Source of the DNA: Chrysomallon squamiferum
Lineage: Eukaryota; Animalia; Mollusca
Reading direction: 5' to 3'
Assembly (NCBI GenBank): GCA_012295275.1
Contig: CM022671.1
Location: 22,134,001 to 22,198,000, forward strand
DNA: 64,000 nt
Positions 3,830 to 63,600 of this stretch are shown one piece after another. The notes beneath the pieces are model-generated. The model did not search any database. It worked only from the letters and a program-made list of their open reading frames with translations, and was not told where the DNA came from. The position numbers were made by a program, and so were the translations under genes. The stretch's first letter is position 1, and every line of letters starts with the position of its first letter.

Positions 3830-3905
<76 letters not shown>
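3830..3905. repeat. (GA)n microsatellite
   Basis: Pure GA run; it produces the spurious ERERER ORF. Confidence 0.97.
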
Positions 3906-3907
<2 letters not shown>

Positions 3908-5030
3908 TTTAACGAAGTATGGATGGTAACGGATTTTAAACTGATTTCAAATTCTGTCCGTTTTTGTTCCTTTTTTTTTTGTTTTTAATGTTATTTTTTT
4001 TCTCATGAAAAATGATTGGAAGATCGTATTACGTACCACTAAACATTAACATATGTGTACATACCAGATGTTAAACCTGATCCTAAAACCGTTATTGATC
4101 AAACTATGTTGTTAGCGACAGCAAGCCAACTGACCTTATTCTTTTTTTCTATTGAACTTTTTTTCTCTTAAATGGAACATGTCTAGTACAGTGTTGTGAA
4201 AACATATGGCGACACGTAGGAGCTATTTTGAAAAAAAAAAAATGTTAAGAATACTTGTAACTAAGTGTAAATAAACAAAACCTTAATACTCCACCTTCAG
4301 GGACCTAGAGTCTAGATCCTTTTGGATGACGTGGAGTGTAATTACAGAACTTCATATGAAATACATAAATTTTAATATGTATAAATAGAAGCAGTTATAT
4401 TTATATACTTGCTTAGAAATCCACGTATATATAAAATAATACATACATACATAGACACATACATACATACATACACACACACATATATATGCCTATACAC
4501 AAATATGCATGCTGTGAACATAGAGGCTCGTATAAAAGTGCATCACTCATTCAGATAAAAATATACTTATGCAAGTCAAACTTTTGTTTCCCTAACATCA
4601 CTGCAAACAGTTCATGTGCCAGACATATTATGCAGGGTTAGAAATGTCAAAGTTCTAGGCCACCTGAAAGAGCATAATGACCGATATTTCGCTAATTTGT
4701 TGGCCCTAAGCCAAAAGAGGCTTAACCAACAGGAATAGTATTAACATCTCTCGGCCTAATATGACCTCAAATGAAAGCTGCTCAACGTTTCAAAACAATA
4801 TCATGACATTTTTTTGTTTTCATAAAAAGAAGCAAATCCATACCGACCTACTTTTTCCTCTGACTGGAACGTTTTCATTCACAGTAAACTAATTTCATGT
4901 TGAAAGTGTAATCAGTCATATAAATTCCCACGGATAACTATCTTGTTTATTTTTTATTAGGCCCAGGTTATTTATAAAATTCAAAATAATGATAAAGGAA
5001 AAAAACATATAATTTACTTTTGAAATTTAA

Positions 5031-22506: not shown

Positions 22507-24336
22507 TCATTTATTAACTGTCCAAGGTCTTTCAGACTGTCTTTGCTGCTCCAATCTAAGCAGTGCCTGTTTGGGAGGAATTAAAGTATTTGAAACACCC
22601 ATTTTTTTCTTTCTCTTTTTGCCAGCCAAATAACTATCATCATCTTCAGGCTCAGTAGAAGACATTCCAAATGAACGAGATGTTTTCAACATAGCCTTCT
22701 CATCAGAGATTTTGTCCTCGTCCACTTTCTTCAGAGCATGATTTACAATGTTTGACTGGTCGTGAAAGAATCGACATTTCTGACCCATGTGACACTTCCC
22801 TTTTTTAAATTTAAAACAAATTTGTCTCGTTCCCCTTTCTGGGTGTTTTTCCGTCATCTGCACATGCTTCTCAAGAATTGAGCTCCTTGCCAGCTCAGCC
22901 TGTTCGTAGCGGTTCGTAAAGACGGACAGCCCAGTGGTTGACACATCCAAGTCCTTTCCTGGCACAGGCAGCGCTTTCTGACTGAAAGGGTTGGGCAGTT
23001 TTGTTTTATTTTGCTGGGACTTGTCTAACCGCGAGTCATCTTCTTTTTCACTCTCTGAACTGGTATTTTCTTCTTCACCATCTTGTGATATCAGTAAGTT
23101 ATTGCCACTTGATGCAGTATTTTTTTCACTATAGAAAAAAAATTAAAAATAATAAAATAAAATCTTGTTATTCTTTATCCATGTACAATACATGGCTATT
23201 CCAATAATACACTTACAAATTTGGTTTCTACAGGAAATAAAATATAAATGAAGAAATTTAATTTAATAACACTCAGTGAGTAGTTTTAAACCACTGTAAT
23301 ATGTCATCATACAAACTGTTAAGGAGAAAGGAAAAGTAATTGTCATATATATCTTTTATCATTATTATCAGGATTTGTTTTCATAGTATCATTATCATTA
23401 TTAGGAACAAAAACTATTAAACAGTATTAATAAGAAGAAAAAATTCAAAAAGGAGACAAAGTTTAATATCAAATGCCACATAAAATCCATCCAAGAAAAG
23501 TTGTAGGAAGATAGCTAATCATTATTTTTTAATGTTAAATTATTTGTACCATTCAGTATTAAATATATGCTGTTATTCTGAGTAACCTCTTATGCAAAAA
23601 CAAACAAACAAAAAATCAGTTTAACATATTTAAGATTTAACAATCAATATTGTAAATTCTGGTCTGCAGTGGCTATTAGAAACAGAACATTGCACTCTGC
23701 CTGATACAGAACAAAATGCAGACTTATTTTGGAAAAAAAATAAATGTCACTAATTCAAATGTGCTTCATAATGGTATTTATAATCCTCTATTGTTTTATC
23801 ACAAGGCATCAGTTGTTTAGTATACATTGAAAGGAGAATTACCAATATACATCATGGTTTCTTTTATTTTTTATTAACTGGAAGGGATCTTTTATGTGTA
23901 CATCTCTCAGAAGGAAAGACCATACCTCAGTCATAGAAAAGCTAGTAAGAACTTGGCTGAGATGGGACATATGAATGAAATGATAAGGATCGGCTTTTCA
24001 AAACGGGACTAAACATGCAGACGTCGGAATAACTGATCCCTTTTAAATACGCTAATATATAGTTTAAAAAAAAATACAGTTTAATGGTTAAACAGCAGTT
24101 CACTAGACAGATTTAGAAACGAATGATCAATAAGTATACGAAAATGGGTATATTACGAATTCAGATAACATGACCAAAATATAAATATAAAAACACTGTA
24201 ACCGAGATTCATCTGGATTAAATAAAGCAAAATAAAATATCTCTCTCTTAAACCACTAATTTCGTCTATACCTATTTTTAATTAAATCATCATCTGATAT
24301 CTCATCTTCACTGCTGTAATCTGCAACCAAAGCCAT
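22507..24336 (-). CDS. Uncharacterised single CCCH (C3H1) zinc-finger protein, 228 aa, 2 exons
   Basis: Exon 1 is 24336-24272 (MALVADYSSEDEISDDDLIKN, phase-2 donor GTATAG). Exon 2 is 23128-22507 (acceptor TTTTCTATAG) and is in frame with the 152-aa ORF. Motif C-x7-C-x5-C-x3-H (CFKFKKGKCHMGQKCRFFH), acidic N-terminus and basic NLS-like KKRKKK. Confidence 0.9.
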
Positions 24337-35982: not shown

Positions 35983-38900
35983 TACATATATATATACACA
36001 TTTATTTTTATATATATATGTACATTTATTTTTACATACATGTATATATATATGTATGTATGTATGTATTTTTGGGATAAAATGCATGTGCACATTTCGC
36101 ATCTGTATGTTTGATTATTGCTCAGTGGCTGTCAGTATGGTTTTTATTTAGAAAAGTTATTATTTTGTTCCAGTGTTTATCTGAACATACTCCATTATTT
36201 CTCTGGAGAAGTGTTTTGTCATTTGTAAATGCTTCAGTATATGTAGATTTAACATTGATTAAAATGACAGTATTGAGAATTTTTCACATTAAAAGTAATT
36301 AGTTATTACCTGATTAGAAATTCTGTATTATTTTATAGTTTTTTTCCCTTTGTTTTGTTTTTTTCTAAAAATAATAATAATAAAAAAGTGTTCTGGTATC
36401 ATTTGCACAAAACTAGTGAGACTAGTTGCTTCTTGCTTTAGCTCCAGTTTTTTTTATAATTCTGACTTTCTTCATTTGATTTATCTAAATTTGATTTACT
36501 GAACATAATGTTTCTAATATGCTTAATATAAAAAAAAAATGCCTGCATGCATCCTAAAATATTATTTCCACTTAAATGTCTGTATTTGAAATGTTAAACT
36601 TACTTTGAATCATCATCCAACTGTAACTTTCTTTTTCTTTTTCCCTTTTTTCTCTTTTTTTTTCCCAGAAGTAATCACTAAAGAATGAAACACTGCTAAA
36701 ACAGTAAAAATAAAAAAGTGCACTTAATAAAAAGCTTCATCCTGCTGAACTCTATTTTCAGTTAATTTGTTAGTATCTAATAGCTGATAATCCAGTTAAA
36801 AAATTCGCAACAGAAATTGCTGAAAAAGGTAACTAATTGCATTATGTTTTTTTCTGAACATTATTTTATATCAAACTGTTCTTTGGTTCATATTTTTATA
36901 AAATACCTGACACAGCTCTCTTTTCATATACACAAATTAGGAACGGTAAAAAATTATTGGCTCAGTGAGGTTCTGGATTACAAAGCATCATTCTTACTCT
37001 TCATAAATTATTTTAAAATTAATTTTAAAAAAGTTAACAATTTGGTGAGATGGTAAGTAATTTAAAGCATTTTTCATAGTGTGGTAATAAAAATGTTCTG
37101 CAGATTTTATTATTCATACTGCTTAATTAAGTTTCAATTTTTTTTTGCTTTCCTGGTAAGTATAAAAATGTTGACAATAACAATGTATATGTTAATCATT
37201 TTGTGAATTTCTTAAATCTCCCATTAAATTTTATTTAAGCTTTTGTATTTTGACAATTATTTGACATTGAAATGCACAACCTTTAGCATGCTTAACATTT
37301 AAGTTGAATGCCCTGTTTAGTTTGTTTGAATGTAGTTCAATCTTTGTTGTGACTATCAGTATTTACTTTGTTAAAATTATGCACAAATGTTTTATGCAAT
37401 GAATAACTGTTATTTAACAATATCAAAATATAACTTGAGGTTTAAATCACAATATTTGGTATCTTTGAAATATACATAATAAACGAAAAAAGAAATCTGA
37501 ATATAAATTTTGCTATTTTGTTTTCAATATAAATAGCTCACCTTTTTTTTTTTTTTTTTTAAAGTTCCTAATTTTTCACTGTTGAAGATATAATTATTAA
37601 ATTATGTAAGAAATGTCTGACAATGGTAAAAATGAATTAAAGTTGAAATATCCATTTTAAATACAACAGTACATTTTGTTCAGATTCAGTCATTTGGAAA
37701 AATTATTTTGCAGCTGGAAACAAGTAAAGAATATTGTCTTTTCTTAGCCTTCAAATGGGATGTATTTTAAATCTGTTTTATTAATGAAGTTAATAGCATC
37801 AAAGCCAGTAGTGGCCCAAGCATCTAAAACTTATGTATACATAATCACACTGAGGAGAAAAGCATACAAAATGTCATTAATTCATGAGTAGCGAATAATG
37901 GCAGCAAATTTCCTTTTGTCATCCAAAATCCTTAGCTTTAACAATTAAGGTTTAATTAAATATTAATTTTATTATAATAATAATAATACGTTTAGCTGTA
38001 AATAGTATTTATTATAAAAAGTTGTGATGCAAAGTTGAACAATTTTAGTTTTTAGAAATGTGAAAAGTGAGCATAGATGGTTTAGATTAAGCTGTCTTTG
38101 GAACAGAATTGTTTCAGTTTAGTAATCTGTAGATAAAAATTAGCCTGTGCAGTTTTATTGAATTTCAGACCATTCCCAAAGGAAGTGCTAACTTCTGTCA
38201 TGTATCATTCTTCAGTATCTGTTTAATGCATAATTACATAAGACTGGAATAAGATTTTAAAATTTCTTCAGTATTCACTTAACATAGACGTAATATTAAC
38301 CTTTTTGTTTTTAATGTACATCGATCAATATGGATAAGACTGAACACACTGCATGACGGAATAGTCTTGGTTTCTTTAACATGTAGACAGGCAAGCGAAG
38401 CAGTGAATCCTAACAAATGAGATAATTTAGATTGTCTGTTCTTTTGCCAACATCAGAGACCAGACAAAGAAATCCTTGAGAAAAAAAACTACCTATGTCT
38501 GGTCATTATCCTGTTTCATCATTTGAAACTTCATGTGAGGTTTTTAAAAAAAAAACCTAAAAAAAAATGTGTTTTTCTTTTTTCCTTCTCTTCCATTTGA
38601 ACTGGTATTCAGATTAAAGTAAGAATAATAAAATGTCAGAAAAATAAAAAATCACTTATTACTTAGTTTTTTATTAGGTGGAAAGAAAATGGCTAAATTT
38701 GTAATTTTTTTTCGAATGTTGTAAAAAAAATTCATATTGAACATTTTACAATTTTTTCAAATAATTTCTGGCTTAATGCTTGTGAATTTTGAAAGATCAA
38801 AATTTAGAGAGTTGAATTAATTAATCTATTTAAAATCTAGGAATGTTGGTTATCAGAACAGGGTTAACTGATATGTTAACAATTCAGTGTTTTACAGCAG

Positions 38901-45304: not shown

Positions 45305-48300
45305 TTATAAGAAAGGTACTCTTAGATTGAGAAAGGTGAGGATTTTTTAAAATCATGTCTGGGCAGGGCCTGGTGCCAAGCAAATTTCATTAAATTTACA
45401 ATTTTGACATCTTTCTGTCATTGCTTTTTAATTTACTATTAATTCCTGTTATATTTTTGAAAAAAAAAAAAAGAAAAAAAGAAGACAATTATAATAAAAA
45501 ATGAAACATGTATATATTATTTTCCTATATTTTCTTTCATTTTTTTAATTTAATTTTCTTTATAATTTTATAGTCTTTCACAGGAGTTTTATTTAAAATT
45601 TATTTTAACCCCACATGGTTGAAGCATTTTGTTTTATAAAAACCAATTTAATAATAAAATTAATTTCTTAATGCACAGCACTTACAAAAAAAACTCCGTA
45701 AGTTACAAACATAATAAGAACACATATAAAAATGTTTTATCTCGTTATTACATCTGCTGCTTTATCTTACATTGTTACTGGTTTGGTAATTTACAAATGC
45801 ATGTACCAGTTACTGGAATCTACAGCATTTTGACATTTACATAATTTACCTATAAAATAAAATTAATTAAGTGAAAATATACATACACATACTAACTTGA
45901 TAAAAAAAAAAGTATAATAAAATAAATTCTCATAAGAAATTCAGATTTTAAAGAATCCCATGTGTTCACAAAATAATAAAAATTCTTCCATACAAATTTT
46001 TAATACCTACATGGTCAAACTTAGGTTATTGGATAAGTTACATTTGACTGATGAGATTTGTGGACTAGCTAATACGTGACATAACATTACAGTTAATTAC
46101 AGACTGGTTATGTTTTATTATTTCCCCAAAGAATATGTGTATTACAGAACCCTGGTGAATAATATGACTATTGACACAAACTTCCACAAACACTATTGAT
46201 ATTTTGGCAAGGTAATAAAGCTAATGAATGCATTGCATCATAGTTTTTGATATAACCAGGCCTTGGATTATTGGCTAGAGGTCTGACTTGAGTGAATTGT
46301 CCAGTTAATATAGCAACTGGTCAGCCACAGGACTTGAGCTTCAGTGAAGTAGAGGTTTGGATTGTTTTTCCACAATTCTCAACAAAAAGTAAATTTTTCT
46401 TAAAGCAGAAATTTGAATTGACATTTTATTTGATACTGATTTTTGTTTTACAATTTTAAATAGAAAGTTGTGTCACAAAAGGCCAAGGCAGAATGAAAGA
46501 TTATTAATTTTATTTATTTATTATTATTATTATTATTTTGTTCGTTGCAGGTGTGACACACTGTTTCAGATGTTATTGTCACTTTCTGAGCAATAATTAG
46601 AAAATAAATGTTGCTAGATTGGTTATGAAATACTGTGATGTCCATTAATATATTATCTTGATATTGGCGGCTTTTCATGTGGCAGTCTTGTGAAGACACA
46701 TCAAGCTGCCTGATGAAGAGCTGTCCAGTGTACAAGAAAATACTACACATTTTTAAAATTTCTTTTTACATCGCAGAAAATGAAGAAATAACAAAGAGTT
46801 TGTGTGTCATTATCTGCATATATAATTGTTGAAATGTAATAATGTACATTTAAAATGAAGTAGTATGGTGGAGAGAAAAAAAAAAAAAAAGAAAATCAGC
46901 ATACACAACCAGTCATTATTTATAATTATTTAGCTTTCATTTTAATTTCAGTTCAATGGTTAGGATTACATAATTAATTTATTAATCATTTTCATTTTCA
47001 TTCTTTTTTTGTTTTTACCATACAATGACAATAATATTGAAATAATTATCTGTAAATTTAAGAACCTCCCCTCTCAAAATATCAATTCAAAATAACACAC
47101 ACACTGACACATCATTTTTTAAATCATTGTCTAGATATTTAGTTCCTTTTTTCCTTTAATCCGAAATTTGAGTTTTATTATAGAAGTTCGGTTTAGCTAA
47201 GTGAACAGTTAATTAAAAAGGCATATGTCTCGAGTTTTGATGGATGTTGCCGACTGCCGCTCTTCCTTTGGTCAGCTATCGTTCCACTACAGAGAGCTGC
47301 CAAATGAAGGGCTGTGATTGGTGACAACAGCGACTAATGATAAATGTTGACAGAGTTGATGACTTGTGTCTGGTTTCAACTAATTAACTCTGTTCTAATG
47401 CAGAGCAGACTTGTATACATGTATTCAAAATTATAGTAATTTATTGGTAATAAAGTAGCAGTGAAATACAATGAATTTAGGATTTAATTATGAATTTTTT
47501 GTTTTGTTTTGTTTTTTACATTTTTGTTAATGTTGAGGTAATTTTAATTTATGGATTTAAAAACATTTATGTTTACTACTTTAAATCACTGCTTTATACA
47601 TTCATTAAATACCTTGTGAACGGTTTTATCTTTTGGCATCATTCTGTATAAGAACAGGAAATGATAAAATAATATATAATGTGTTGCATTTTCCTTATCA
47701 GTTGTTTGGAATTTCAAGCAAATTTTAAATGGAGAAACTTAAAACAAAAATGATGTAAATATATAACTTTGTTTTACTTCAGTTCTTTATTTAGCTGCTT
47801 CTGTTTTTATTTTTAGTTCATTATTATTGTTATTGGTGGTGGTGTTGTTGTTATTATTATTATTATTATTGTTAATTAAAAAAAAAAAAAAACACAAAAA
47901 ACCCCCAGCAAAAAACACAAAAAACTTAAAAAATAAATCCCACCACAACAACAAAAAATAAAATAGAGATAAAAAATAAGTATCTGGTCTTGAATAGTTC
48001 ATAATTTTGGCCAGCTAGATATTTTACTATCATTGCTTTTTAGCTTTGTTGATATGTTGTCATTTTATGTGTATGGTGATTTTTATAAAATATACCTTGA
48101 AAAAGAAAATGTAAAAAAAGAAGTGATTCATTTTTTTACTTTCCTGTTAATTGTTCCGGTATTTGATCAAATGCTCCACTGCTGAATTGTTAGTTGCATT
48201 AATCATAAGCTGATAGGAATAGTATTATTGATGGAGTAATATCATAAATAATGGTTGCAGCCCACAAAACAATTTTAAAAATAACAAATTCTTTTCATTG

Positions 48301-60302: not shown

Positions 60303-60569
60303 TAAAAATAATAATAACAGAAAATAATTATAACAATTATAGAAATAAATAATTTAAACAATAAAAACATCAACAACAACAACAACAATAGTAATAATAA
60401 TAATAATAAAAGATAATAGTTACATCAAATAGAAATAAAATATAGAAATATATAGTTTAAATAATAATAATAATTACAATAATGATGATGTTGGTGATAA
60501 CAATAATAATAATAATGATAAGATAATAATCATAACAACTGCAAATACATTATAGTAATACATATATTA

Positions 60570-60600
<31 letters not shown>

Positions 60601-63600
60601 TTTATAATGATGATGATAATAAAACACACTCTCCATATTTTAACAGATTTCTTATGAAGCAACAGAAATGTAAGTATTATAAATGGTATACAGCAAGGTA
60701 CAGATGTTTTTAGTAAGGAAATCTTACCATAAAACCAGGTAATTGCAATCACCTCAAAAAAAGCCAGAACCATCAAAGACAGAGCTGCCGCATAGCGATC
60801 AATCAGTTGAAAGAAGTAAATCCCTCCCTGGAAAAATAAAAAATAAAAAATAAAAAATAAATAAATAGTAGTAGTAGTAGTAGTATCTGCAGTAGTAATA
60901 TAAATGAATGTAAAATTGATAATACATATAACATAATGATGATGATGATGATGATACGATTAAATATAATAATAAAATTAGAAATAAAAACAGTAAAATA
61001 GTAAATAAACATAATACTTATCTATATCTTGTATAGCAAAATCTCTTTTATATAAACATACATGCTACTTGTTTAGATACTATAGGATATGTTAAAATGT
61101 ACTTACAAACTACTTTACCTGTGTAATGTTGGGAAGTCCACACAGAAATGACACAACACACACAATGAGAACTAGAAATTCTTTTCTTCTCAGGTATTTC
61201 TTAACCTGTGGACCAAAATGATCACTGATAGCAGTCACTATCACTTCAACAGATGCAAACTGAAACAGAAGAAAAACAAATTTAAATAAAAAAATTAGGC
61301 AAAATAAAATTAGACAAATTTTATTGTGTAAGTCAGTAAGGTATTTGAATACTTTTTGTTTTTAATATCTGTAATTGCTTAACAAATGGATGAAACTATA
61401 ATCATTAAATTATATTGCTTTGTTATATTTTTAATTCTTATTAAGACATATATATCTGAAGAAACAGTAAAAGATTATATTACACTTTTATACTAATACA
61501 AATTCTATATATTACACAAAATGACAAAACGCATCCTAATCATATACACAGATAAAATAAAAACGATATAATAGATTAGAAAATATCCAGGTAATGCACA
61601 CAAATTGCTTTAACAATGTTTTATTAATTGTTAACATAATCACTGTATTATTACCTGACTGTCTATACCCAGACAGATAAGCATGAAGAAGAAGAGAAAA
61701 GCAAAAAGGGGAGCAACTGGCATGTTTACAAAGGCTTGTGGGTAAATGATGAAAACCAAACCAGGGCCTTAAAAAAAAAAAAAAAAAATAAAAATAAAAA
61801 TAAAAAACAAGATTTGGTAAACAAAATTAAATGCTAACATCTATTTAAAAACATTTTTTGTAAAATTAAACAGCAATAAGAAAACAAAACAAAAAAAGTA
61901 ATTTTAAGTTAAAAATTAAAATATAATCAACTAAATTACAACACTAACTATTTAATATTAAAGAAAAAAAAAAAAGAAGAATTTTGATTTGACTACTAGT
62001 TTTAGACTTGAAGAAGTCAGAAAAAAAAGAAGGATTTACTACTGTGTTTAAGTTTTAATATAATTTTGAAAGCCTAATGACTTCAAGTAACTGTGGAACA
62101 ATTTATTTACAGAATACACCTAAAGCAGTTAAATCTGAAACTAAAGTTGCTTATCATACTGCAGTTATAATTATTCTAAAACAAGATTTAGTTCAAGTTG
62201 AAATCAGTTCTGATCACAGACTTAGATTACAAAATAACTGTCATAGTAATACCAATCATATCTTTAATTTTATCATGCAAATACTGAAAGCACAATTTAT
62301 TATACCAAATAATTCTCAGAAAACATCTGTAATCACGTCTAGTGGGGCTTTTTAATCGTAATAATTGTGAATCCTTTGTAACTGTATTTAAAAGCCTACC
62401 TTCTGATACAACATCCGTTACATCCTTGCCCTGGATATAAGCAAGATTGCCAAGGATTGAGAAAATGGCAAATCCTGCCAGGATGCAAGTGAAAGCATCA
62501 GCTGCTGCCAGTAACAAAACATCTCTGGAAGAAAGAAACAAAGAAAAATTAGGACACTGTAAGGACCGGACTATATCTATAAGCAAGAGAGGGAAATAAA
62601 GACACGGTCCATGTACATACAATATTAAAATTCTAAACAAAATTACTTGTATTTTTAGATGAAAGTAAATTATTGTTATGGTGCATGATATAATAGTATA
62701 TATATATAAAAAAAAAAAAAACCTGAAGATAATATAATCACAACAACAATAATGTTCACTGACAATAAAATAAATTTAAAAAAAAAAAAGAATAATAAAT
62801 ATAATTGAAAATATATTTTTTTAAATTATTATTATACATTGCCAGGTAGAAGATAAATGTATTTTCAGTAAAAATAATTAAAATAATCTAGATTTCTACC
62901 TGATATCATGTCCAATACAAAATTAAATTATTAAATAAAATCAAAATAATAAAATTAAAATAATAATTTTAAAATATTTAGTTTCATATCTCATTATACA
63001 TTAACTTTTCTTAATTAATATATATATATACAAACAAAAACACACATATAATTCTCTGGAAAATAATTTGAGACAGTATTTTAAAACTAACATTCTGAAT
63101 ATTAAATATCTCATAAATGCAAAAAATAAAATAAAATAAAATAAAATAAAATCAATAAGATAATTAACACAATAAGCATCAAAATAATTCATAAAAGTTT
63201 AACTCAGTTTTAAATTTTAACCAGTGATATAGTAATTTTGATTACTGATATAATGAATCAAATAATTGAAGGTTAAATATGACCTTGTTGGTCTATATAA
63301 TTATGACTATACTGAAATTTGGAATTATATGAAATTAAAACATCCCTCTTTCCATCAACAAACTGAACCAGTCAAAGCCATTTTATTTATCATTGTTATT
63401 GTCCCCTTTTAATAAAGTCTGGATTGTTGAAAAGAAAGTTAATATACACAATATAGATCAATTGGTCAAAGGCAAATGATTTATTGAAACTAATATATCT
63501 AATGAAAATAACAACTTAAATATAATAAAATGATTTAAACAACAATAATAATAACACAAATGAAAAAAAAGTAATTTTAAATTTAAAAGGAAACTATAAT

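What the first reader, a model, noticed from the sequence alone, without database searches (positions are those of the whole stretch)
46582..46602. Near-perfect miR-315 complementary site beside pre-miR-745a: possible miRNA-on-pri-miRNA control
Seen: the plus strand reads CTTTCTGAGCAATAATTAGAA. Recalled: protostome miR-315 is UUUUGAUUGUUGCUCAGAAAGCC. Positions 1-21 all pair, with 18 Watson-Crick pairs and G:U at 3, 5 and 9, and nt 10-21 are uninterrupted Watson-Crick across the slicing position. All three deviations are wobble-compatible, as expected if RNA pairing is selected. The site is ~55 nt upstream of the miR-745a hairpin, inside the candidate exon and abutting its AATAAA. It is not the arm of a good hairpin on either strand. 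Inference: miR-315 may slice or modulate the miR-745 primary/host transcript, or this RNA may sequester or degrade miR-315. Such extensive sites are rare in animals and I know of no description of this one. Chance in AT-rich DNA is not excluded.
Basis: partly seen in the sequence, partly recalled or inferred. Interest (0 to 1): 0.8.

Follow-up and report, generated by a model that had tools for sequence, protein, structure and literature searches.

The report
miR-315 match beside snail miR-745 cluster
A snail genome has a 21-letter stretch just upstream of two microRNA hairpins that pairs end to end with an unrelated microRNA, miR-315; this is likely a rare coincidence in AT-rich DNA, but it could be a site through which one microRNA controls the RNA that makes another.

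Summary
The match is real. Window 46582-46602 (+) pairs with miR-315-5p nt 1-21: 18 Watson-Crick pairs, G:U at 3, 5 and 9. miR-315 is unchanged in 8 of 8 non-cephalopod molluscs listed. The site ends 48 nt before a true miR-745a (Mir-22) hairpin of a gastropod; miR-745b follows. For miR-315 alone, chance is 4e-4 per window. Over about 100 miRNAs it is about 4% per window and about 2% per genome beside any hairpin. Nothing supports function yet: the seed has two wobbles, the exon and poly(A) claims are unsupported, and the one other miR-745 cluster obtained lacks the site. It is not a miR-315 star arm (0 of 46 stars have its register). A decayed, inverted miR-315 copy remains possible: 18 of 23 identical on the minus strand, with a weak partner 13-mer upstream. 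Odds: chance 0.45, in-trans slicing-type site 0.28, decayed copy 0.22. Aligning this flank in related gastropod genomes would decide it.

The parts
46582..46602 (+). 21-nt stretch complementary to miR-315-5p nt 1-21 (18 WC + 3 G:U); read on the minus strand it is miR-315-like with three transitions
46651..46742 (+). miR-745a (Mir-22-P1) hairpin; mature 3p arm at 46704-46726
   Evidence: fold z -7.7; Rfam mir-980 E 6e-6; mature arm as in Biomphalaria and octopus
47245..47325 (+). miR-745b hairpin; mature 3p arm at 47294-47315
   Evidence: fold z -3.8; Rfam mir-22 E 4e-5; mature arm as in Biomphalaria
46536..46548 (+). 13-mer with 11 of 13 identity to miR-315 nt 1-13, partly complementary to the site; possible other arm of a decayed hairpin, weak
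   Evidence: 9 such positions of 127,974, but 4-25% of control tiles score as well; Rfam mir-315 aligns 46525-46613 at 13.6 bits against a gathering score of 63
46603..46608 (+). AATAAA abutting the site; use as a poly(A) signal not shown
   Evidence: 267 copies on the + strand
46609..46615 (+). 7-mer predicted to pair with the middle of the site in the local fold, partly hiding it

Best explanation
The 21-mer pairs fully with miR-315 and sits 48 nt upstream of a miR-745a hairpin, but it is likely a chance match with no regulatory role. miR-315 is U/G-rich, so its complement is A/U-rich and tolerates wobbles at 14 of 21 positions. In 73% AT DNA such sites arise about 2 times per 400 Mb for miR-315 and about 260 times for a set of 100 miRNAs (computed; genome size and miRNA set are assumed). 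One happened to fall in the flank of a pri-miRNA. Shown: the pairing, the hairpins, the rates under a Markov null. Inferred: that no AGO complex acts there.
For: Look-elsewhere rates: any of 100 simulated miRNAs gives a site this good in 4% of windows and within 300 nt of one of 100 hairpins in 2% of genomes; one mismatch worse, 97% and 46%. Two of the three wobbles lie in the seed (nt 3, 5), where a selected site should be best paired (established knowledge of seed targeting), and two face miRNA G residues, the cheapest near-miss in AT-rich DNA. The only other miR-745a/b cluster obtained (L001, 1 of 10 metagenome loci) has no site in 2.3 kb upstream or 3 kb downstream (best score 14.5 against 19.5; best duplex -16.4). 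The exon and poly(A) context is unsupported. In Biomphalaria miR-745b is annotated as intronic, where cytoplasmic RISC would not meet the flank. A review notes that even near-perfect sites were not associated with cleavage signal in C. elegans (PMC4206712 passage).
Against: For miR-315 alone the site has p = 1-3e-9 per position, 4e-4 per window and 6e-7 within 100 nt of one hairpin; for any of 100 miRNAs, 6.5e-5 per hairpin. It stands about 7.7 sd above the mean of all tiles. Nt 10-21 are unbroken Watson-Crick across the slicing position. Only about 1% of three-deviation sites are all-wobble. L001 is a distant, unidentified animal whose flanks do not align with the window at all (scores 25-27, shuffle maxima 36-37), so its lack of the site says little. 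A second weak coincidence (the upstream 13-mer) is left to chance too.
Confidence: 0.45

Rival explanations
1. It is a selected in-trans target site. miR-315 loaded in the miRNA-class Argonaute would bind the miR-745a/b primary or host transcript and slice it between 46592 and 46593. The cut would uncap the downstream RNA and expose both hairpins to 5'-3' decay in competition with Drosha, lowering miR-745a/b; or, if the AATAAA is used, it would clear a short host RNA that ends before the hairpin. All steps after the pairing are inferred.
For: 21 of 21 paired, nt 10-21 Watson-Crick, -28.2 kcal/mol, stronger than the -25.1 reported for miR-122 on pri-miR-21 (different program; PMC5829740). Same strand as the hairpins. 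Better paired in the 3' half than any of 46 natural miR-315 star arms. miR-315 is abundant in Biomphalaria (1.6 million reads in one library). RNA-library contigs of 3 samples (one study) cover sequence on both sides of the site, for example 45978-46500 and 46748-46986 (strand unknown, DNA carry-over not excluded). Precedents exist: miR-196/Hoxb8 cleavage and miRNA sites in pri-miRNAs.
Against: Two seed wobbles and a wobble at nt 9. No exon or poly(A) support. Outside the Drosha basal region. Most of the site is predicted paired in local structure. Absent from L001. Cleavage is described as not prevalent in animals. Slicing by mollusc miRNA-class AGO was not tested.
Confidence: 0.28
2. It is the remains of a duplicated pre-miR-315 inserted in inverted orientation. 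The minus strand of 46580-46602 would be the old mature arm, and 46536-46555 the old star arm. It no longer folds well and likely makes no miRNA. It could have been co-opted as a target afterwards.
For: Minus strand matches miR-315 at 18 of 23, and the three changes in nt 1-21 are all transitions. This reading explains the bulge-free register directly. An 11/13 partner segment lies in the right orientation 67 nt from the far end (9 of 127,974 positions match so well). Rfam mir-315 aligns over 46525-46613.
Against: The partner segment is matched by 4-16% of all 61-nt tiles, 9-25% of T-matched tiles and 9-23% of shuffles. The Rfam score is 13.6 bits, E 6.8, on the + strand only. The implied loop is 24 nt against 15-19 in 12 mollusc hairpins, and the mollusc flank motifs are not visible (compared by eye). 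miR-315 is on another scaffold than miR-745a/b in Biomphalaria, so no linkage is known. The plus-strand version (site as star arm) fails: 0 of 46 star arms have the unbulged run, and 12 of 12 mollusc 3p arms have C opposite G5 and G9 where the site has U.
Confidence: 0.22
3. The site is the 3' arm of a long-range or intron-split hairpin whose 5' arm is the miR-315-like 16-mer at 36110-36125, 10.5 kb upstream, giving a divergent miR-315 family member after splicing.
For: 36110-36125 matches miR-315 nt 2-17 at 15 of 16 with the seed intact and pairs with the site over 16 nt (-23.5 kcal/mol). In-silico splice products fold into a long stem (-25 to -37 kcal/mol for 14 donor/acceptor pairs).
Against: 9 of 300 GC-matched random 21-mers have such a partner in the window. 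None of the 7 GT candidates tried behind the 16-mer is a consensus donor. No RNA joint at 46551 or 46570. [quoted passage not shown]
Confidence: 0.03

Closest known systems
miR-196 / Hoxb8 and miR-249 / ZK637.6 cleavage sites (passages of reviews PMC6223193 and PMC4206712)
   Same: Near-complete pairing along the miRNA, unbroken across nt 10-11, in a bilaterian.
   Different: Those sites are conserved, lie in mRNAs and have demonstrated cleavage. This one lies in a pri-miRNA flank, has three wobbles (two in the seed), and has no conservation or cleavage data.
miR-122 on pri-miR-21; miR-709 on pri-miR-15a/16-1; let-7 on pri-let-7 (passages of PMC5829740 and review PMC8077553)
   Same: A mature miRNA complementary to the flank of a primary miRNA of another (or the same) family.
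   Different: The miR-122 site has a perfect seed and lies 13 nt from the precursor, blocking Drosha without a fall in pri-miR-21. Here the seed is wobbled, the site is about 65 nt from the predicted cut, and the pairing is slicing-shaped. No such case in molluscs turned up in my searches.
TDMD triggers of Drosophila (PMC10102002 passages)
   Same: Seed paired allowing G:U, nine or more consecutive 3' pairs, strong energy.
   Different: No central bulge; conservation unshown; those five triggers lie in 3' UTRs.
Mir-315 precursors (MirGeneDB rows in PMC12553114 supplement file 2; Rfam RF00717)
   Same: Site resembles either arm in sequence, and a weak second arm lies at precursor distance.
   Different: No stable hairpin, no star-arm bulge, loop longer than in molluscs, flanks not recognisable, 13.6 of 63 bits.

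Membership tests
miRNA-directed cleavage site (miR-196/Hoxb8 type) | Extensive pairing, Watson-Crick across nt 10-11 | tested here: met
   nt 10-21 WC, 21 of 21 paired
miRNA-directed cleavage site (miR-196/Hoxb8 type) | The species expresses a miRNA with this sequence | tested here: inconclusive
   No genome or small RNA data held. Canonical in 8 of 8 non-cephalopod molluscs including Haliotis and Lottia; changed in 4 of 4 cephalopods
miRNA-directed cleavage site (miR-196/Hoxb8 type) | Site conserved beyond its flanks | tested here: inconclusive
   Absent in the single, unalignable comparator L001; no close relative obtainable
miRNA-directed cleavage site (miR-196/Hoxb8 type) | 5'-phosphate ends at the nt 10/11 position | not testable with these tools
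   Only assembled contigs were available
miRNA-on-pri-miRNA control (miR-122/pri-miR-21 type) | Site on the strand of a true pri-miRNA, near the hairpin | tested here: met
miRNA-on-pri-miRNA control (miR-122/pri-miR-21 type) | Perfect seed and overlap with the Drosha basal region | tested here: not met
   G:U at nt 3 and 5; about 65 nt from the predicted cut against 13 nt
miRNA-on-pri-miRNA control (miR-122/pri-miR-21 type) | Processing changes when miRNA or site is altered | not testable with these tools
   Needs experiment
TDMD trigger | Seed pairing (G:U allowed), nine consecutive 3' pairs, strong energy | tested here: met
   criteria; pairing
TDMD trigger | Central bulge of 1-6 nt | tested here: not met
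   No bulge, only G:U at nt 9
Mir-315 precursor | Stable hairpin with intact mature arm | tested here: not met
   z -0.5 to -1.3; Rfam 13.6 of 63 bits; no intact miR-315 arm in the window
Mir-315 precursor | Star arm with the family's one-base bulge | tested here: not met
   0 of 46 listed 3p arms share the site's unbulged run (by eye)
Mir-22 family (miR-745a/b) for the neighbouring hairpins | Mature arm identity and hairpin fold | tested here: met

The most novel reading that the evidence does not exclude
A gastropod lineage has wired two ancient miRNA families together: miR-315 slices the miR-745a/b (Mir-22) primary transcript at a plant-like, fully paired site just upstream of the first hairpin, possibly born from an inverted scrap of the miR-315 gene itself. 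This would be miRNA-guided cleavage used to gate the biogenesis of another miRNA.
Probability: 0.25. Interest if true: 0.78.

Novelty: new member of a known kind. Interest (0 to 1): 0.32.

Why it matters
The novelty label describes the two non-chance readings (together about 0.5), each of which is a known kind: a near-perfect miRNA site or a decayed miRNA copy. Under the chance reading it is no functional feature. If functional, it would be a rare slicing-shaped site in a bilaterian and, to my searches, the first miRNA-on-pri-miRNA link in a mollusc. It would tie miR-315 to Mir-22, which is reported to gate synaptic plasticity in Aplysia (passage in PMC9820140). It is cheap to test: one genome alignment, and a slicing or minigene assay in Drosophila cells, whose miR-315-5p is identical.

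Tried and rejected
No whole genome is held, so this species' miR-315 gene was not located. Comparators: the metagenome scan with the miR-745a arm gave 10 loci, of which 1 (L001) is a miR-745a/b cluster; the other 9 lack miR-745b (5 or more mismatches). Viral contigs gave 0 and 0. Genome contigs gave 1 hit in a bacterial MAG, not examined further. L001's record is not searchable. Five look-ups of earlier findings gave nothing relevant. The RNA contigs do not cover the site or either hairpin (nothing between about 46537 and 46744). The tool states that a hole proves nothing, and a similar hole lies before miR-745b where there is no site, so this is no sign of slicing. No RNA joints were listed. 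Sequence upstream of 45520 was not examined with reads, so an upstream exon remains open. X5's 940-nt piece shows 6 other letters and 2 gaps, none in the site; about 0.2 would be expected there, so this is uninformative. Star-arm relic on the plus strand: rejected. Repeat origin: the site is in no tandem repeat and in none of the 20 direct families or 25 inverted pairs shown of at least 60 and 1284. ORFs between 23,200 and 60,500 were listed (290 of 42 aa or more) but not scanned against families, so a protein-coding host gene was not excluded. The look-elsewhere figure uses simulated miRNAs, not the real mollusc set. The MirGeneDB Mir-22 rows have only 30 nt of flank and do not reach the site's position. 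Supplement file 2 of PMC12553114 was cut when stored, so rows may be missing. The supplements of PMC7773633 had no matches.

Full report
Observation. The 21-mer is at 46582-46602 on the + strand and is unique in the window within 3 mismatches. Nt 1-21 pair with 18 Watson-Crick pairs and G:U at 3, 5 and 9; nt 22-23 do not pair; the duplex is -28.2 kcal/mol against -37.1 for a perfect one. It is the best of 12,792 tiles in the window. Nt 10 and 11 face 46593 and 46592, as stated.

Setting. The window is 23-33% GC in 2-kb bins. A CCCH zinc-finger reading frame at 22.5-23.1 kb is 72% identical to a Gigantopelta aegis protein, then 52% and 46% to Haliotis, so this is a gastropod. Two hairpins lie downstream of the site: miR-745a at 46651-46742 (z -7.7) and miR-745b at about 47245-47325 (z -3.8), matched by Rfam mir-980, mir-22 and mir-745 below their gathering scores. 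The site ends 48 nt before the stem base and about 65 nt before the predicted Drosha cut. This species' miR-315 could not be read. Among the 46 Mir-315 rows of the PMC12553114 supplement, 8 of 8 non-cephalopod molluscs carry the canonical arm and 4 of 4 cephalopods differ, so the canonical sequence is a safe inference.

Chance. Markov models of order 1, 3 and 5 trained on the window give 0.8-1.1e-9 per position for the strict pattern and 2-3e-9 for an equal score, or 1-4e-4 per window. With 100 simulated miRNAs an equal site is expected in 4% of windows, within 100 nt of a given hairpin at 6.5e-5, and within 300 nt of any of 100 hairpins in 2% of genomes. One mismatch worse, the last figure is 46%. 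A 400-Mb genome of this composition (assumed size) would hold about 2 such sites for miR-315 and about 260 for all. The simulated mean is driven by low-GC sequences (mean 3.2e-9, median 1.7e-10), so these figures may be high. The match is thus unusual but within reach of a large scan.

The wobble argument. Only about 1% of random three-deviation sites are all-wobble, which looks like support. But the site was chosen for pairing, and that 1% is already inside the rates above. Read on the minus strand, the three deviations are three transitions from miR-315; neutral change gives three wobble-compatible differences 4-10% of the time. Two wobbles fall in the seed, which is not where a selected site would be expected to carry them (established knowledge, not tested here).

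Exon and poly(A) claims. AATAAA occurs 267 times on the + strand, so one starts within 30 nt of a given point about 12% of the time. The CAG at 46548-46550 is in the top 9% of 1583 YAG sites by pyrimidine content. RNA-library contigs from three samples of one study cover unspliced sequence up to about 46500 and again from about 46745, and list no joints. Contigs show neither strand nor absence, so the exon is unsupported, not refuted. In Biomphalaria miR-745b is annotated as intronic in a coding gene (PMC12261956 supplement).

Conservation. One comparator was obtained: L001, a marine metagenome contig with miR-745a and, 943 nt on, miR-745b. It has no miR-315 site (best score 14.5 against 19.5; best duplex -16.4 on the hairpin strand, -17.0 on the other), but its flanks do not align with the window above shuffles and its taxon is unknown. 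The other 9 of 10 loci and three further scans gave nothing usable. The decisive test is therefore still open.

Is it a piece of a miR-315 gene? As a star arm on the + strand, no. None of the 46 listed 3p arms has the site's unbulged run opposite nt 13-17, and all 12 mollusc 3p arms have C opposite G5 and G9 where the site has U (read by eye). As an inverted, decayed copy, perhaps. The minus strand is 18 of 23 identical to miR-315, and 46536-46548 matches nt 1-13 at 11 of 13 at precursor distance. Only 9 of 127,974 positions match that well, yet 4-25% of control tiles reach the same local alignment score. Rfam mir-315 aligns over 46525-46613 at 13.6 bits, E 6.8. The region does not fold better than shuffles, the implied loop is 24 nt against 15-19, and miR-315 is not next to miR-745 in Biomphalaria (PMC7328434 supplement 1, read whole). 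A second miR-315-like 16-mer at 36110-36125 pairs with the site, but 9 of 300 random 21-mers have such a partner and no consensus donor follows it.

How it would work if functional. The pairing is slicing-shaped, like miR-196/Hoxb8 (review passages). It lacks the central bulge of TDMD triggers and lies outside the basal region that miR-122 blocks on pri-miR-21. The likeliest functional mechanism is therefore a cut at 46592/46593 that uncaps the hairpin-bearing RNA in competition with Drosha, or clearance of a host RNA ending at the AATAAA. Local folding hides much of the site behind 46609-46615, though weakly compared with the duplex. Every step beyond the pairing is inference.

Literature. 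Searches for miR-315 with miR-745 (13 papers), with miR-745a and cluster (1), with TDMD (1), molluscs with miRNA clusters and miR-745 (2), miR-315-3p (6) and MirGeneDB terms (18) showed no description of this site. I saw listings for most. I read passages of PMC7328434, PMC12261956, PMC12553114, PMC9820140, PMC7488030, PMC6223193, PMC4206712, PMC8077553, PMC5829740 and PMC10102002, and supplement rows of PMC6828783, PMC7328434, PMC12261956 and PMC12553114; PMC7773633's supplements gave no hits. The library lacks most subscription papers and bioRxiv supplements.

Verdict. Observation confirmed, interpretation open. My odds are judgement, not a computed posterior: chance 0.45, in-trans site 0.28, decayed inverted copy 0.22, split hairpin 0.03. 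Interest 0.32; about 0.78 if slicing of the pri-miRNA were shown.

Noticed in passing
window 36109-36125: A 16-mer identical to miR-315 nt 2-17 at 15 of 16 on the + strand; on the minus strand it is a site with a perfect seed and pairing to nt 17 (-23.7 kcal/mol), the second best in the window. It forms no hairpin alone.
   Followed up: yes
window 22507-23142 (-): Reading frame of a CCCH zinc-finger protein, 72% identical to a Gigantopelta aegis protein.
   Followed up: partly
window 60567-60959 and 62227-62775 (-): Frames with hydrophobic peptides that look like exons of an SLC6 sodium:neurotransmitter symporter (family name recalled, not tested).
   Followed up: no
L001:2351-2635: A 78-nt tandem repeat (3.7 copies, 92% matches) starts at the last bases of the miR-745a mature arm; each unit ends in a GAAGAG-containing stretch resembling the arm's 3' half, and the array is open in two frames. 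A 50-nt repeat (5.7 copies) lies at 3904-4188.
   Followed up: partly
window 46669-46690 (miR-745a 5p arm): The 5p arm differs visibly from the four mollusc Mir-22-P1 5p arms seen while the mature 3p arm is unchanged.
   Followed up: no
window 46610: Run X5 carries a one-base insertion just behind the AATAAA, inside the 7-mer predicted to pair with the site.
   Followed up: no
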